Shown piece by piece: positions 187-46,350 of a stretch of DNA of 64,000 nt (its first letter is position 1; the number at the start of each line of letters is the position of its first letter). A program made the position numbers and the translations under genes. Origin of the DNA: a virus. The stretch lies in IMG/VR virus record IMGVR_UViG_3300020056_000007; one strand, written 5' to 3'. The notes beneath the pieces were generated by a model. That model was not told where the DNA came from and searched no databases. It saw only the letters and a list, made by a program, of their open reading frames with translations.

Positions 187-227
187 AACAGTGACACTTT
201 TGTTTATATTAAATAAAAAATAAAGTG

Positions 228-256
228 TTTACATTTCTTAAAAGTTTTGATATAAT
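228..256 (+). promoter_or_regulatory. sigma70-like early promoter of tmRNA
   Basis: TTTACA(228-233)-17 bp-TATAAT(251-256), A-rich upstream. Confidence 0.85.
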
Positions 257-317
257 ATATAGTATGGTAGATGTTAGAGGACAGACAGGACTCGGGGGCG
301 GTACCCGACGCCTCCAC

Positions 318-577
318 CATAAATACACTAGGAGTGATTATGCCCGATGATGAAAACAAAAAAATTGTAGAAGTAAAAAACGAACCAAACTCATTTGAGT
401 TAATGTTAAGAGTTTTAGGAAATGAGTTTATTGGAATTAGATTAGCATCAACAAATGCTAGTGGTAAAATGATTTTATGGGCTATATTACTATTATTCTT
501 TACTTTCATGATTATGGAAGTCTTTGGATTCAATCAGTATTTTACTGGAATTGATTATTACGAGTAGTGTATTTATG
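318..577. repeat. perfect 13-bp inverted repeat CATAAATACACTA (318-330) / TAGTGTATTTATG (565-577)
   Basis: Exact reverse complements, adjoining the tmRNA acceptor stem. Confidence 0.95.
340..567 (+). CDS. 75-aa single-TM membrane protein inside the tmRNA intervening segment
   Basis: AGGAG SD at 330-334, ATG 340, TAG 565-567; hydrophobic ILWAILLLFFTFMIMEVFGF. Confidence 0.8.
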   Translation: MPDDENKKIVEVKNEPNSFELMLRVLGNEFIGIRLASTNASGKMILWAILLLFFTFMIMEVFGFNQYFTGIDYYE

Positions 578-742
578 ATGGGGGCGAACTAGGATCGACT
601 GATGTTTGAGTCTACGAAAAATAACTGCAAACGATAACTTTGCACCTTCAGATTACGCTTTAGCGGCATAATGCTGACGGGTTGGGCACTTACCTTGGAA
701 CAGAAAAGTGTCACCATTAATTTAAATCAAAGGAAGAAAAAT

Positions 743-1126
743 ATGAAAAATATTCTTGTAGCAGCTGCCCTTGTTGCAGTAAGCTCACTAGCCGCTAATG
801 CAAATGAGCTAGGCGGTGGATTCAGTTGGAATTTAGAAACAACAGCTGAACATAACGTAGATACCGAAGTAAGTACATGGACAATCACGCCAGAATTAAA
901 TTATGACATGATGGGTTTGCTTAATTTAGAAGTATCTTCAAAACTTAATTTGTACGATGGTACAGATTGGGCATGGGATGAAACTACTCATCTTACAGAA
1001 CCAACAATTAATTTTGAAGCTTCAAAAGAAGTTGTAGCAAATGCAGAAATTTATGCTAAAACTGGCTATGACTTCAAAACAGATGATATGACAGATGTCA
1101 CTGTTGGAGTTACTTGGAGCTGGTAA
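743..1126 (+). CDS. small outer-membrane beta-barrel/porin-like protein
   Basis: SD AGGA; signal peptide MKNILVAAALVAVSSLAANA; alternating beta pattern; C-terminal VTVGVTWSW aromatic beta-signal. Confidence 0.7.
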   Translation: MKNILVAAALVAVSSLAANANELGGGFSWNLETTAEHNVDTEVSTWTITPELNYDMMGLLNLEVSSKLNLYDGTDWAWDETTHLTEPTINFEASKEVVANAEIYAKTGYDFKTDDMTDVTVGVTWSW

Positions 1127-1203: not shown

Positions 1204-2136
1204 ATGAATTATTTTGAATTAAAACCTGAAGAAAACACATTTTCAAATATTGTAATAGATCTTACTCATAGATGTAATATGGAGTGCGCTAATTGTTATA
1301 TCCCAAATAGAGATATTCCAGATCTAAATAAAAATAAACTATATGAGTTTTTATCTAAACTTCCTCATAGAACATATATAAGATTAATTGGTGCTGAACC
1401 AACAATGCGTGATGATTTGCCGGAAATTATATCTACGGTTAAAAAGCTTGGTCATCGCCCAAGTGTAACTACTAATGGATTAAAACTAGCTAGAAGAGAA
1501 TATGTAAAACAACTAAAAAATGCTGGTCTTAGATTATTACTTCATAGTATGAATGGTGCCGATGATGATATGGCATATAAAGAATTGGATAATGGTAATT
1601 GGGCTACAGTTAAAGTAAGAGCATTAGATAATATATTTGCTGAAAGACTACCAATTAATACTGGTACTATTATCGCTCGTGGTGTAAATGAATACATAAT
1701 GAATAGACAAGTAGAAGTGTTTGCTGAAAGAGCAATAAAGTCTGGAATCAATTTTAATACTACTGCTCCATATAATAGAATTACACCAGTTTTAAGAATG
1801 AAATCTGTAGGTGCAATCGGTAGATATATGGAAGGAGTGTCTTATACAATTGATGAATTAATTGAAATGGCAAGTTATAGATTAGGCGTAAATAAATCAG
1901 ATATGATTCAAACATCTGCGGGTGTTGTTAAAGCTGGTCCATCAATGGAGGCTTTAACATCTTGGATGTTTCCATATGAAACAGAAGCTGGTAAAATATT
2001 AATTAGACTTATAGATTGGCAAACTGATGATGATGGTGTTATCGATCATGATAATCCAAATAGAGGTAGACTTACCGAAAATTTTACAGTAGCACCTTTC
2101 TTTGAACATGTTAAAGTAAATGAGAACAATTACTAA
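1204..2136 (+). CDS. radical SAM protein (MoaA-like core)
   Basis: CNMECANC CxxxCxxC, GAEPT, TTNG motifs. Confidence 0.9.
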   Translation: MNYFELKPEENTFSNIVIDLTHRCNMECANCYIPNRDIPDLNKNKLYEFLSKLPHRTYIRLIGAEPTMRDDLPEIISTVKKLGHRPSVTTNGLKLARREYVKQLKNAGLRLLLHSMNGADDDMAYKELDNGNWATVKVRALDNIFAERLPINTGTIIARGVNEYIMNRQVEVFAERAIKSGINFNTTAPYNRITPVLRMKSVGAIGRYMEGVSYTIDELIEMASYRLGVNKSDMIQTSAGVVKAGPSMEALTSWMFPYETEAGKILIRLIDWQTDDDGVIDHDNPNRGRLTENFTVAPFFEHVKVNENNY

Positions 2137-40638: not shown

Positions 40639-40867
<229 letters not shown>

Positions 40868-40885
40868 ATTATTAAGGAAAGTGAA

Positions 40886-40999
40886 ATGGCAGCAAAAAAT
40901 GCAAAGAAAACTTCTATCGGTGGTAGAAATCAAAAAATGTCTTCTATGAATAAATCTAAAAAACGTGGCTTTAAAAAATATAGAGGTCAAGGGAAATAA
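40886..40999 (+). CDS. 37-aa Lys/Arg-rich peptide (…KKYRGQGK)
   Basis: AAGGA SD; translated by hand between tRNAs. Confidence 0.7.
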   Translation: MAAKNAKKTSIGGRNQKMSSMNKSKKRGFKKYRGQGK

Positions 41000-41076
<77 letters not shown>

Positions 41077-41079
41077 ATA

Positions 41080-41164
41080 GCCTCCGTGATGAAATAGGTA
41101 GACATAACAGACTTAAAATCTGTGGCCAATTGGCGTGCCGGTTCGAGTCCGGCCGGAGGTACCA
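41080..41164 (+). tRNA. tRNA-Leu (TAA)
   Basis: ACAGA-CTTAAAA-TCTGT; long variable arm; CCA. Confidence 0.95.
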
Positions 41165-45288: not shown

Positions 45289-46170
45289 ATGAGCTTTGAA
45301 AATCTAAAAAGAAACCGTGATCAGATTTCTAAACTGGTCCAAGCCGCCGAAAAAGTTGGTGGCAATACCGAAACAAAATCCTACGAAGATAACCGCATTT
45401 GGAAACCCACAGTAGATAAAGCTGGTAATGGGTATGCCGTACTACGGTTTCTTCCTGCAGCTGAAGGTGAAGAACTACCTTGGGTTCGTTATTGGGATCA
45501 TGGCTTTAAGGGCCCAACAGGTCTTTGGTACATCGAGAATAGCTTGACTTCAATTGGTCAAAATGACCCAGTTGGTGAATTGAATTCTCGTCTCTGGAAT
45601 TCAGGCATTGAGTCTGATAAAGATAAAGCCCGTACCCAAAAGCGTAGGTTGCATTATGTGACTAATGTATATGTTGTTGAAGATCCATCTAATCCAGAAA
45701 ATGAAGGTAAAGTTTTCCTTTATAAGTTTGGTAAGAAAATCTTTGATAAGATTATGGATGTCATGCAGCCAGCATTTCAGGATGAAACACCCATCAATCC
45801 ATTTGATTTTTGGGAAGGTGCTAATTTCAAACTAAAGATTCGAAATGTTGAGGGTTACCGCAACTATGACAAATCTGAGTTTGCAAGTGCATCTCAACTC
45901 GCTGAAGACGATAAGTTAGAAGCAATTTATGATAAAATGTATTCTCTTAAAGAGTTTACCGATCCAAGTAACTATAAAACATATGATGAACTTAAAACAA
46001 AATTGATGCGAGTTCTTGGTGAGGAAGCTACTGCTGGAGCATACACTGTGAAAGAAGAAGCAAAAATAAATGAACCTATTCCAGCATATGAACCAATTAC
46101 GGCTGAGCAGGTTGATACATCTGAAGATGACACTATGTCATATTTTGCTAAACTGGCACAGGAAGACTAA
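45289..46170 (+). CDS. gp32: ssDNA-binding protein gp32
   Basis: GNGYAVLRFLPA, WYIENS, GKKIFDKI, NYDKSEF, acidic tail. Confidence 0.96.
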   Translation: MSFENLKRNRDQISKLVQAAEKVGGNTETKSYEDNRIWKPTVDKAGNGYAVLRFLPAAEGEELPWVRYWDHGFKGPTGLWYIENSLTSIGQNDPVGELNSRLWNSGIESDKDKARTQKRRLHYVTNVYVVEDPSNPENEGKVFLYKFGKKIFDKIMDVMQPAFQDETPINPFDFWEGANFKLKIRNVEGYRNYDKSEFASASQLAEDDKLEAIYDKMYSLKEFTDPSNYKTYDELKTKLMRVLGEEATAGAYTVKEEAKINEPIPAYEPITAEQVDTSEDDTMSYFAKLAQED

Positions 46171-46312
46171 GGCGAACGGGGAAAGCCTGGCAATCAAGCC
46201 GAATGTACCCAAGCAAATCCATTCTTGTAGTCTGCAGCTCTTGGATGGTCGGTAAAAGCGCTGGTACCGTAGAAGAAAATCCAGCCGGTTGCTGCATACG
46301 TCAAATGCAGAT
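46171..46312 (+). ncRNA. candidate structured ncRNA of unknown family
   Basis: GC-rich non-coding stretch with several hairpins (ATCCA/TGGAT, GCTGG/CCAGC, CTGCAT/ATGCAG). Confidence 0.5.
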
Positions 46313-46314
46313 AG

Positions 46315-46350
46315 AAGGGGAGGTACCTAGGAAGGCCTCCCCTTTGATTT
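46315..46350. terminator. intrinsic terminator between convergent units
   Basis: AAGGGGAGG...CCTCCCCTT then TGATTTTT. Confidence 0.8.

What the first reader, a model, noticed from the sequence alone, without database searches (positions are those of the whole stretch)
309..586. Protein-coding gene nested in the excised intervening segment of a permuted tmRNA, clamped by a dedicated 13-bp stem
Seen: between the acceptor CCA (317-319) and the coding-piece 5' end (580) are 260 nt holding one complete cistron: SD AGGAG (330-334), ATG 340, a 75-aa TM protein, TAG 565-567. The perfect inverted repeat 318-330/565-577 continues the 7-bp acceptor stem, starts at the stop codon on one side and ends at the SD on the other, so the ORF is looped out exactly. 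Established: in alphaproteobacterial permuted ssrA this spacer is normally short and is removed by RNase P and 3' trimming. Inference: tmRNA maturation would release a stem-closed mini-mRNA, coupling production of a membrane protein to tmRNA processing. The left arm also contains CATAAATA (late-promoter variant), so the ORF and coding piece might be transcribed late without the acceptor piece. I do not know of this architecture being described.
Basis: partly seen in the sequence, partly recalled or inferred. Interest (0 to 1): 0.9.

Follow-up and report, generated by a model that had tools for sequence, protein, structure and literature searches.

The report
Membrane-protein gene inside phage tmRNA spacer
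An uncultured marine T4-like phage carries a two-piece ribosome-rescue RNA (tmRNA) gene whose cut-out spacer holds a real, selected 75-codon membrane-protein gene, and related phages use the same stem-closed spacer as an exchangeable slot for about twenty other small genes.

Summary
Window 267-715 is a permuted (two-piece) tmRNA: acceptor piece ends CCA 317-319, coding piece starts G580, and the tag reads ANDNFAPSDYALAA. The 260-nt spacer holds SD AGGAG, ATG 340, a 75-aa ORF and TAG 565-567, closed by a perfect 13-bp helix (318-330/565-577) stacked on the acceptor stem.

- **The ORF is a real gene.** It has 76 homolog clusters. dN/dS is 0.07-0.12 in unsaturated nested pairs.
- **The same gene family sits elsewhere.** In other related phages it is an ordinary stand-alone gene.
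- **The nested state is not one clade** (AU p = 2e-5). One phage population holds both forms around an identical protein: nested, and un-nested after a tmRNA replacement.
- **The helix covaries but is not dedicated to the ORF.** 78 of 89 spacers of 30-266 nt, with or without an ORF, have it in the same register.
- **Cargo swapping is real.** 31 of 34 spacers of 120-299 nt carry a sense ORF, about 21 families. Some hold two genes. The cultured phage Melnitz has an unannotated one.
- **The late-promoter idea is not supported.**
- **Untested:** release of a stem-closed mini-mRNA, and translation itself.

I found no description in the searchable papers. This scan has noted the same layout before on other phage DNA.

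The parts
228..256 (+). Sigma-70-type promoter TTTACA-17-TATAAT with TG extension, just upstream of the tmRNA 5' end
   Evidence: 11 of 12 consensus matches, the best site in 1-1300. Function is inferred.
267..319 (+). tmRNA acceptor piece: T arm 292-308, acceptor 3' strand 309-315, discriminator A316, CCA 317-319
   Evidence: Rfam alignment; sequence. The exact 5' end is not determined.
320..579 (+). Intervening segment (spacer) absent from mature two-piece tmRNA
   Evidence: Modelled by Rfam as one insertion in the acceptor loop. The boundaries follow from the CCA and from G1 of the acceptor stem.
318..330 (+). Left arm of the 13-bp closing helix (CATAAATACACTA); its last base is the first base of the SD
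   Evidence: Covariation.
330..334 (+). Shine-Dalgarno AGGAG, 5 nt before the ATG
   Evidence: A purine-rich motif sits at the same place in the nested relatives.
340..567 (+). ORF-B: 75-aa small membrane protein, with a charged N-terminus, an amphipathic helix, and a hydrophobic helix carrying an invariant Glu60
565..577 (+). Right arm of the closing helix (TAGTGTATTTATG); it begins with the stop codon
578..579 (+). AU spacer before G1 (U at -1); with A316/C317 it forms the small interruption between the two helices
   Evidence: GAT is the 3' end of 63 of 94 spacers.
580..715 (+). tmRNA coding piece: acceptor 5' strand 580-586, GGATCGAC 591-598, short region before the tag, 3' tail pairing with the acceptor piece 5' end
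627..671 (+). Tag reading frame ANDNFAPSDYALAA plus stop
743..1126 (+). Next gene downstream on the same strand: 127-aa protein with a signal-peptide-like N-terminus and a weak outer-membrane beta-barrel match. Context only.
   Evidence: PF13505, E 0.0017, below the cut-off. No terminator-like site lies between it and the tmRNA.

Best explanation
The window comes from an uncultured marine T4-like myophage, distantly related to the pelagimyophage/Melnitz group. It carries its own alphaproteobacterial-type two-piece tmRNA gene behind a strong early-type promoter.

In this clade of phage tmRNAs the spacer between the CCA end and the 5' end of the coding piece is closed by a helix of about 12-14 bp. 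That helix continues the acceptor stem after a two-nucleotide interruption. Its apical loop tolerates any insert, because the spacer is discarded during maturation. It has therefore become a slot for small accessory genes.

Here the slot holds ORF-B, a 75-aa membrane protein. Other related phages encode ORF-B as an ordinary stand-alone gene.

**Shown:** the gene is under purifying selection while nested. The helix and the tmRNA parts are kept by compensatory changes. Cargo differs between phages and can be stacked. Cargo is almost always on the sense strand and carries its own ribosome-binding site but no promoter of its own.

**Inferred:** ORF-B is transcribed from the tmRNA promoter as part of the tmRNA precursor. 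It is translated from that precursor and/or from the excised spacer. RNase P cuts at U579/G580 and 3' processing trims back to CCA319, giving the two mature pieces. Cargo is exchanged between phages by recombination in the conserved tRNA-like flanks.

The biochemical role of ORF-B is unknown. My best guess, at low confidence, is an early-expressed inner-membrane protein of host takeover or superinfection exclusion.
For: **A tmRNA with all its parts**
- Rfam scores lie above both cut-offs.
- G3-U70, T arm, ACCA and an ALAA-ending tag are all present.
- The acceptor pair at columns 5/283 switches between A-U and G-C among nested loci.

**Phage context**
- gp6 and gp5 baseplate proteins and ribonucleotide reductase.
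- Nearest isolates: Phage C48C1 at 42% and Melnitz/HTVC008M at 33% gp6 identity.

**A real gene**
- 35 viral loci and 76 protein clusters hold homologs.
- 20 columns are invariant.
- dN/dS is 0.07-0.12 in unsaturated nested pairs: L008-L009 7 synonymous to 2 non-synonymous changes, L008-L012 12 to 5, window-L004 24.5 to 17.5. Synonymous sites are saturated in most other pairs.

**Stand-alone copies**
- Tightly packed between other genes, with no inverted repeat, in L014, L015, L018-L027, L033 and L034.

**More than one nesting event**
- The tree needs 3 changes of state. The AU test rejects a single nested clade, p = 2e-5.
- Nine independent assemblies encode the identical 76-aa protein. It is nested in L163, L164, L168 and L169. 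In L001, L162 and L165-L167 it lies just upstream of an uninterrupted, different tmRNA allele.
- The un-nested form lacks the 48-nt acceptor piece but keeps ACCA and both helix arms.

**The helix**
- 13 pairs, 8 with changes on both sides, 94% of cells paired against 39-47% when the partners are slid by 1-3 columns.
- Family-wide, 78 of 89 unique spacers of 30 nt or more have at least 10 of the first 12 positions paired. Several pair types occur per position.

**The slot**
- 18 of 35 non-redundant spacers of 100-300 nt have a sense ORF over at least 70% of their length. Only 2 do on the antisense strand. Shuffled sequences average 0.375.
- 31 of 34 spacers of 120-299 nt carry a sense ORF of 30 codons or more, in about 21 families.
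- L060 carries a DUF6356 gene (Pfam E 4e-11).
- L002/L003 carry that gene plus ORF-B in one 443-nt spacer.
- L097 carries two other genes in 499 nt.

**Promoter and fold:**
Against: - There are no RNA or protein data. Transcription from the tmRNA promoter, the cleavage sites at 319/320 and 579/580, and translation are all inferred.
- A helix that pairs the 5' leader of the coding piece with the 3' trailer of the acceptor piece might be expected to hinder RNase P. How it is opened is unknown.
- In the closest analogue, the ORF-bearing spacer of Coxiella 23S rRNA, the ORF appears not to be translated and the excised RNA is degraded fast (PMC4990558). Presence in a spacer therefore does not prove expression.
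- The sample is biased. L001-L035 were collected through ORF-B itself.
- Some GC-rich 'cargo' ORFs (L077, L079, L038) may be chance frames in bacterial-type tmRNA genes.
- ORF-B has no family assignment and only a low-confidence model (pLDDT 64).
Confidence: 0.78

Rival explanations
1. The 13-bp stem is a device dedicated to the ORF. tmRNA maturation releases a stem-closed, nuclease-protected mini-mRNA, so that production of the membrane protein is coupled to tmRNA processing. A CATAAATA late promoter in the left arm can additionally transcribe the ORF plus the coding piece without the acceptor piece.
For: - The SD abuts the left arm and the stop codon lies in or at the right arm in all nested relatives.
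- After cleavage at 319/320 and 579/580, both ends of the spacer RNA would be base-paired. The fold of 320-579 keeps 11 of those pairs.
- The helix is kept by covariation.
Against: - The helix is equally present in short, ORF-less spacers. Examples: 32 nt with 13 bp, 45 nt with 15 bp, 50 nt with 14 bp. It predates the cargo and is independent of it.
- ORF-B works as a stand-alone gene without any such stem in many phages. It is kept unchanged in the natural un-nested variant.
- In several relatives the cargo frame has no stop in the spacer and runs into the mature coding piece: L002/L003, L044 and Melnitz. Cutting at G1 would truncate that message.
- CATAAATA is at chance frequency and is not conserved. 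The phage's likely late promoters read TATAAATA directly before late genes.
Confidence: 0.15
2. The ORF together with its inverted repeat is a mobile cassette. It hops into and out of the tmRNA, and the repeat arms are its termini, not an RNA helix.
For: - L001 and L162 have ORF-B flanked by the same repeat outside a tmRNA.
- The nested state is scattered on the ORF-B tree.
Against: - The alignment of the two forms shows that the outside copy still carries the ACCA of a lost acceptor piece. It differs from the nested form by a 48-nt deletion plus replacement of the segment from the right arm to the resume-codon region by another tmRNA allele. That is a tmRNA replacement, not a transposition of the cassette.
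- The arms are in a fixed register with the acceptor stem in 78 of 89 spacers, whatever the cargo.
- The other stand-alone ORF-B copies have no repeat.
- No transposase or nuclease is present in this spacer.
Confidence: 0.04
3. The tmRNA gene is a pseudogene broken by insertion of a gene, or the ORF is a chance or decaying frame.
For: - Rfam scores of the nested genes (57-75 bits for the window-like ones, up to 97.5 bits for L029-L032) are lower than those of the uninterrupted relatives (90-125 bits).
- ARAGORN does not call it.
Against: - The score loss comes from the one long insertion. Every defining tmRNA part is intact.
- The acceptor stem shows a compensatory change among nested loci.
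- The tag frame is kept in all nested relatives.
- The ORF shows strong purifying selection in the nested state.
Confidence: 0.03

Closest known systems
Phage-encoded two-piece (permuted) tmRNA of marine T4-like myophages: OM43 phage Melnitz and pelagimyophages (PMC9004378); Rfam RF04321 and RF01849 (PMC11915505)
   Same: Same gene form: acceptor piece first, then a spacer, then the coding piece. Same alphaproteobacterial type, same kind of phage, an early-type promoter, and an ALAA-ending tag.
   Different: Those papers treat the spacer as discarded sequence. The Melnitz record annotates only a tmRNA feature over it, and the paper does not use the word 'intervening'. The 2025 tmRNA database paper singles out one spacer with a tRNA gene and one with a repeat element as curiosities, and does not use the term 'ORF'. 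Here the spacer holds a selected protein gene. Melnitz itself has an unannotated 54-codon frame there.
ORF-bearing intervening sequences of bacterial 23S rRNA (Coxiella burnetii IVS with the S23p ORF; PMC4990558)
   Same: A stem-closed segment inside a stable-RNA precursor is cut out without religation. The mature RNA is left in pieces held together by base pairing. The segment contains a protein ORF.
   Different: - That IVS lies in rRNA helix 45 and is excised by RNase III.
- Its ORF lacks a good ribosome-binding site, appears not to be made in vivo, and is decaying.
- Here the host RNA is tmRNA and the expected enzymes are RNase P and 3' processing nucleases.
- The ORF has an SD and is under purifying selection, and the cargo is exchangeable among about 20 families.
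Group I introns with homing-endonuclease genes in the T loop of tmRNA genes (PMC11915505)
   Same: A protein gene sits inside a tmRNA gene without destroying it.
   Different: - Introns self-splice and religate, sit in the T loop, and carry selfish nucleases.
- Here there is no intron core: Rfam gives no intron match in the window.
- No religation is needed, the position is the natural break of the permuted gene, and the cargo is a small membrane protein.
Promoter-early stem-loop (PeSL) cassettes that shuffle small ORFs in hyperplastic regions of T4-type phages (from my own memory of Arbiol, Comeau, Krisch and co-workers, 2010; not checked here)
   Same: Small accessory ORFs of T4-like phages are exchanged between genomes by recombination at short conserved flanking motifs.
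   Different: PeSL motifs are intergenic promoter-plus-hairpin units. Here the conserved flanks are the two halves of a tRNA-like domain and its closing helix, and the ORF lies inside a stable-RNA gene.

Membership tests
Permuted (two-piece) tmRNA, Rfam RF04321 / RF01849 | Covariance-model score above the curated cut-off | tested here: met
   67.5 bits (cut-off 47) and 60.3 bits (cut-off 50).
Permuted (two-piece) tmRNA, Rfam RF04321 / RF01849 | tRNA-like domain: 7-bp acceptor stem with G3-U70, T arm, encoded ACCA at the end of the upstream piece | tested here: met
   309-315 pairs with 580-586, including G582-U313. T arm 292-308. ACCA 316-319.
Permuted (two-piece) tmRNA, Rfam RF04321 / RF01849 | Tag reading frame with an alanine resume codon, ending in a hydrophobic ALAA-type tail and a stop | tested here: met
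   ANDNFAPSDYALAA plus stop, at 627-671.
Permuted (two-piece) tmRNA, Rfam RF04321 / RF01849 | The precursor is cleaved into two RNAs and the spacer is removed | not testable with these tools
Permuted (two-piece) tmRNA, Rfam RF04321 / RF01849 | Works with SmpB (host or phage) | not tested
   No host genome is held. I did not search the window for smpB.
23S rRNA intervening sequence with an S23p ORF | Located in 23S rRNA helix 25 or 45; ORF of the S23p (23S rRNA IVS protein) family | tested here: not met
   The host RNA is a tmRNA. Pfam at E up to 1 gives only a sub-threshold SurA_N_2 match for ORF-B.
Group I intron in tmRNA | Group I catalytic core inserted in the T loop | tested here: not met
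   There is no intron family match in the window at Rfam gathering thresholds. The insert lies after the CCA, not in the T loop.
T4-type late promoter at 318-325 | TATAAATA consensus, conserved position upstream of a late gene | tested here: not met
   The site reads CATAAATA, which occurs at chance frequency. It is not conserved in nested relatives. Sites matching TATAAATA exactly lie directly before other genes.

The most novel reading that the evidence does not exclude
The spacer of phage two-piece tmRNA genes is an evolved expression device, not just a safe place to park a gene.

- RNase P and 3' processing would release a small mRNA whose two ends are locked in the closing helix. That would shield it from end-dependent nucleases and bring the stop codon next to the ribosome-binding site.
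- A ribosome reaching the stop codon inside the right arm would melt the helix. That would expose the RNase P site and the CCA trailer.
- tmRNA maturation and translation of the cargo would then control each other. One early transcript would serve both as messenger and as stable-RNA precursor.
Probability: 0.2. Interest if true: 0.85.

Novelty: new variant of a known kind. Interest (0 to 1): 0.72.

Why it matters
- **A 'discarded' spacer that codes.** tmRNA genes are annotated as purely non-coding, and the spacer of the permuted form is treated as waste. Here, and in many related marine phages, that spacer carries selected protein genes. One transcript would be both a stable-RNA precursor and a messenger.
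- **Missed annotation.** Such tmRNA genes can be missed: ARAGORN does not call this one. Where the tmRNA is annotated, the small gene can be missed: the Melnitz record has no CDS there.
- **A new route of gene exchange.** The conserved tRNA-like flanks give phages a ready-made site for swapping small genes by recombination. This would be a new route of accessory-gene shuffling in the most abundant ocean myophages.
- **A test system exists.** The cultured phage Melnitz has a cargo frame in its spacer, so the idea can be tested at the bench.

Tried and rejected
- **RNA evidence.** No whole genome is held for the window.
- **Function of ORF-B.**
  - PHROGs gave nothing.
  - Pfam gave only a sub-threshold SurA_N_2 match at E 0.13.
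  - The ESM Atlas returned only viral hypothetical clusters.
  - There was no match in 50,697 phage isolate records.
  - The AlphaFold model had pLDDT 64, too weak for a fold search, so none was run.
- **DNA search against phage isolates.** blastn with window 200-760 found only a 36-nt chance-like match.
- **Late-promoter idea.** Rejected.
- **'Stem travels with the ORF as a mobile cassette'.** I entertained this. I dropped it, which shows that the outside copy is a relic of a nested gene whose tmRNA was replaced.
- **The longer 98-aa frame from ATG 271.** Rejected as the true start. The extension is the acceptor piece read as protein and is not conserved as protein. All relatives start at the SD-preceded ATG.
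- **Original two-piece tmRNA papers.** PMC16621 and PMC516066 are not held. Whether bacterial permuted tmRNAs have the same closing helix was not checked.
- **Strict counting of consecutive pairs** under-called the helix, because many members have a mismatch at position 3. It was replaced by per-position counts.

Full report
**1. The observation.**
- Acceptor 3' strand 309-315, A316, CCA 317-319.
- A 260-nt segment, 320-579.
- The acceptor 5' strand GGGGGCG at 580-586, which pairs with 309-315 and includes the G3-U70 pair.
- Inside the segment: AGGAG at 330-334, ATG at 340, a 75-codon frame, and TAG at 565-567.
- The inverted repeat 318-330/565-577 is perfect over 13 bp and is the top inverted repeat of the region.

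Rfam calls a permuted tmRNA over 267-671 (RF04321, 67.5 bits) and an alphaproteobacterial-type tmRNA over 224-715 (RF01849, 60.3 bits). Both place the ORF as one long insertion in the loop closed by the acceptor stem. ARAGORN does not find the gene. The tag frame at 627-671 reads ANDNFAPSDYALAA.

A promoter-like site TTTACA-17-TATAAT with a TG extension (11 of 12 matches) lies at 228-256. The minimum-energy and centroid folds of 262-720 both contain the acceptor stem extended by A316-U579, a C317/A578 mismatch, and then the 13-bp helix.

**2. Context.**
The window encodes T4-like baseplate proteins (gp6, gp5) and ribonucleotide reductase. It is about 33% G+C. Its gp6 is 42% identical to that of Phage C48C1 and 33% to those of OM43 phage Melnitz and Pelagibacter phage HTVC008M. 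It is therefore an uncultured marine T4-like myophage. Two-piece tmRNA genes are known in that group (PMC9004378).

**3. The ORF is a real gene.**
- tblastn-confirmed relatives lie in 35 viral contigs at 53-87% identity. There are 76 protein clusters, all from marine metagenomes.
- The alignment has 20 invariant columns. They include a glutamate inside the hydrophobic helix.
- Among nested copies, synonymous sites are saturated in most pairs. The unsaturated pairs give dN/dS of 0.07-0.12: L008-L009 7 synonymous to 2 non-synonymous, L008-L012 12 to 5, window-L004 24.5 to 17.5.
- No family, fold or function could be assigned.

**4. Where the gene sits in relatives.**
Rfam scans of the loci and inspection of the flanks give three situations.
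- **Nested as in the window:** L004-L013, L035 and L029-L032, the last group with an ORF only 53% identical.
- **Ordinary stand-alone gene:** tightly packed between other genes, without any inverted repeat, in L014, L015, L018-L027, L033 and L034. Some lie a few hundred bases to 1.5 kb downstream of an uninterrupted tmRNA (L016, L017, L024).
- **Directly upstream of an uninterrupted tmRNA:** L001.

On a tree of ORF-B the nested state needs three changes. The AU test rejects a single nested clade (p = 2e-5).

**5. A natural pair of forms.**
The 76-aa protein of L001 is encoded, letter for letter, on 22 contigs. The eight places shown, together with L001, give nine independent assemblies.
- In L163, L164, L168 and L169 it is nested in a tmRNA.
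- In L001, L162 and L165-L167 it is not.

The alignment shows nearly identical flanks and ORF. The un-nested form lacks 48 nt, the whole acceptor piece up to CTCC. It keeps ACCA, both helix arms and the ORF. From the right arm to the region just before the resume codon it carries a different module: a -10-like box, another acceptor-piece allele, a 103-nt spacer with its own closing helix, and a longer pseudoknot-bearing 5' part of the coding piece.

So the stem around the outside copy is a relic of a recently nested state. The tmRNA was replaced, and the membrane-protein gene was kept unchanged. This argues that ORF-B does not need to be inside the tmRNA. It also shows that these modules recombine in nature.

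**6. The helix is real but generic.**
On eight sequences the 13 pairs are 94% paired, and 8 pairs change on both sides. Sliding the partners by 1-3 columns drops pairing to 39-47% and the covariation score from 0.375 to 0.10 or less.

Spacer lengths run from 4 to 499 nt.

Of 89 unique spacers of 30 nt or more, 78 have at least 10 of the first 12 positions paired in the same register. That register starts at the second C of CCA and leaves two nucleotides, usually AU, before G1. Several pair types occur per position, for example AT 31, GC 17, TA 12 and GT 12 at position 6.

Spacers of 32, 45 and 50 nt are simple hairpins with 13-15 bp. The helix therefore belongs to the tmRNA precursor, not to the ORF. 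The ORFs lie in its apical loop.

**7. The spacer is a slot.**
- Among 35 non-redundant spacers of 100-300 nt, a sense-strand ORF covers at least 70% of the length in 18. On the antisense strand that holds for 2. The mean longest-ORF fraction in shuffles is 0.375.
- Counting frames that run on into the coding piece, 31 of 34 spacers of 120-299 nt hold a sense ORF of 30 codons or more. They fall into about 21 families by BLASTP. A few GC-rich ones may be chance.
- Examples: a 75-aa protein in L107, a 63-aa DUF6356 protein in L060 (Pfam E 4e-11), membrane peptides in L069/L109, L127 and L135, and a basic 55-aa protein in L113. L111 holds a cysteine-rich frame.
- L002/L003 carry the DUF6356 gene and ORF-B together in one 443-nt spacer. 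There ORF-B has lost its stop and reads 15 codons into the mature coding piece.
- L097 has a 499-nt spacer with a 34-aa ORF and a 120-aa membrane protein. That protein belongs to the same family as the neighbour of ORF-B in the stand-alone loci.
- A purine-rich ribosome-binding motif follows the left arm in nearly all cases. The stop codon lies in or next to the right arm.
- The strong sense bias and the lack of own promoters fit expression from the tmRNA promoter.

**8. A cultured example.**
Melnitz has its tmRNA at 46013-46345. The GenBank record shows only a tmRNA feature there. Its 142-nt spacer has GGAG, an ATG and a 54-codon frame that runs into the coding piece. L130 has the same protein with an in-frame 8-codon insertion. 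The first ORF of L097 shares the motif KIPKYLSG.

**9. What is not supported.**
CATAAATA occurs 9 times in the window against 8.8 expected. It is on both strands here only because it is part of a palindrome. Nested relatives read CAAAATTG, CATAATTA or CATAAATG at that place. Exact TATAAATA sites sit directly before many other genes. Release of a protected mini-mRNA, and coupling to maturation, remain untested.

**10. Literature.**
- The Melnitz paper never uses the word 'intervening' and does not discuss the spacer in the tmRNA passages I read.
- The 2025 tmRNA database paper mentions one spacer with a tRNA gene and one with a repeat element as unusual, and does not use the term 'ORF'.
- Three further full-text searches found no description of protein genes in tmRNA spacers.
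- The nearest described analogue is the ORF-bearing intervening sequence of Coxiella 23S rRNA. It is excised by RNase III, degraded fast, and its ORF is apparently not translated (PMC4990558).
- Earlier notes of this scan report the same layout in other phage genomes. I tested cargo swapping and read-through frames independently here.

**11. Verdict.**
The thing is a new variant of a known kind: a phage permuted tmRNA gene whose stem-closed spacer serves as an exchangeable slot for small protein genes. Here it holds a selected 75-aa membrane protein of unknown role.

Shown by comparative evidence:
- the ORF is a real, selected gene;
- the helix is conserved;
- the cargo is exchangeable.

Inferred:
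- co-transcription with the tmRNA;
- the processing sites;
- translation of the cargo.

Noticed in passing
L163:661-1148 versus L162:1501-2090 (also L001:296-885): One phage population holds two forms around an identical 76-aa ORF-B. In one form ORF-B is nested in the tmRNA. In the other the 48-nt acceptor piece is deleted and a different complete tmRNA allele, with its own promoter-like box and a 103-nt spacer, lies right behind the ORF.
   Followed up: yes
L159:1584-1748 (Melnitz MZ577097.1, about 46096-46260): The cultured OM43 phage Melnitz has an unannotated 54-codon frame with an SD in its tmRNA spacer, running into the coding piece. L130 has the same protein with an in-frame 8-codon insertion.
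   Followed up: partly
L002:2798-3270 and L003: A 443-nt tmRNA spacer carries two genes: DUF6356, then ORF-B overlapping its end. ORF-B has no stop in the spacer and reads through the helix arm and the acceptor 5' strand into the mature coding piece. The usual AU spacer before G1 is missing.
   Followed up: partly
L097 (reverse strand), spacer of 499 nt after the CCA: The tmRNA spacer holds a 34-aa ORF and a 120-aa multi-pass membrane protein. That protein is of the same family that neighbours ORF-B in phages where ORF-B stands alone. This spacer lacks the usual closing helix.
   Followed up: partly
window 587-626: The stretch between GGATCGAC and the resume codon is only about 27 nt in the window, L004, L005 and L163. 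In L001, L029, L097 and Melnitz it is about 75 nt. The short type may lack pseudoknot 1. Another first-stage note on this stretch says the same.
   Followed up: no
window 40791-41164: A cluster of three tRNA genes: Arg-TCT, Pro-TGG and Leu-TAA.
   Followed up: no
window 1204-2136: A 310-aa radical SAM domain protein lies about 0.5 kb downstream of the tmRNA, after the 127-aa gene at 743-1126. A run of small same-strand genes follows it.
   Followed up: no
window 271-339: The ORF-B frame is open back to ATG 271, through the acceptor piece. Public gene calls include this 98-aa version (P0002). It is most likely an over-extended call.
   Followed up: partly
L159:1860-1920 (Melnitz): Downstream of the Melnitz tmRNA lies a sequence resembling the glutamine-riboswitch motif reported in PMC9004378. 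The window has nothing like it between the tmRNA and the next gene.
   Followed up: no
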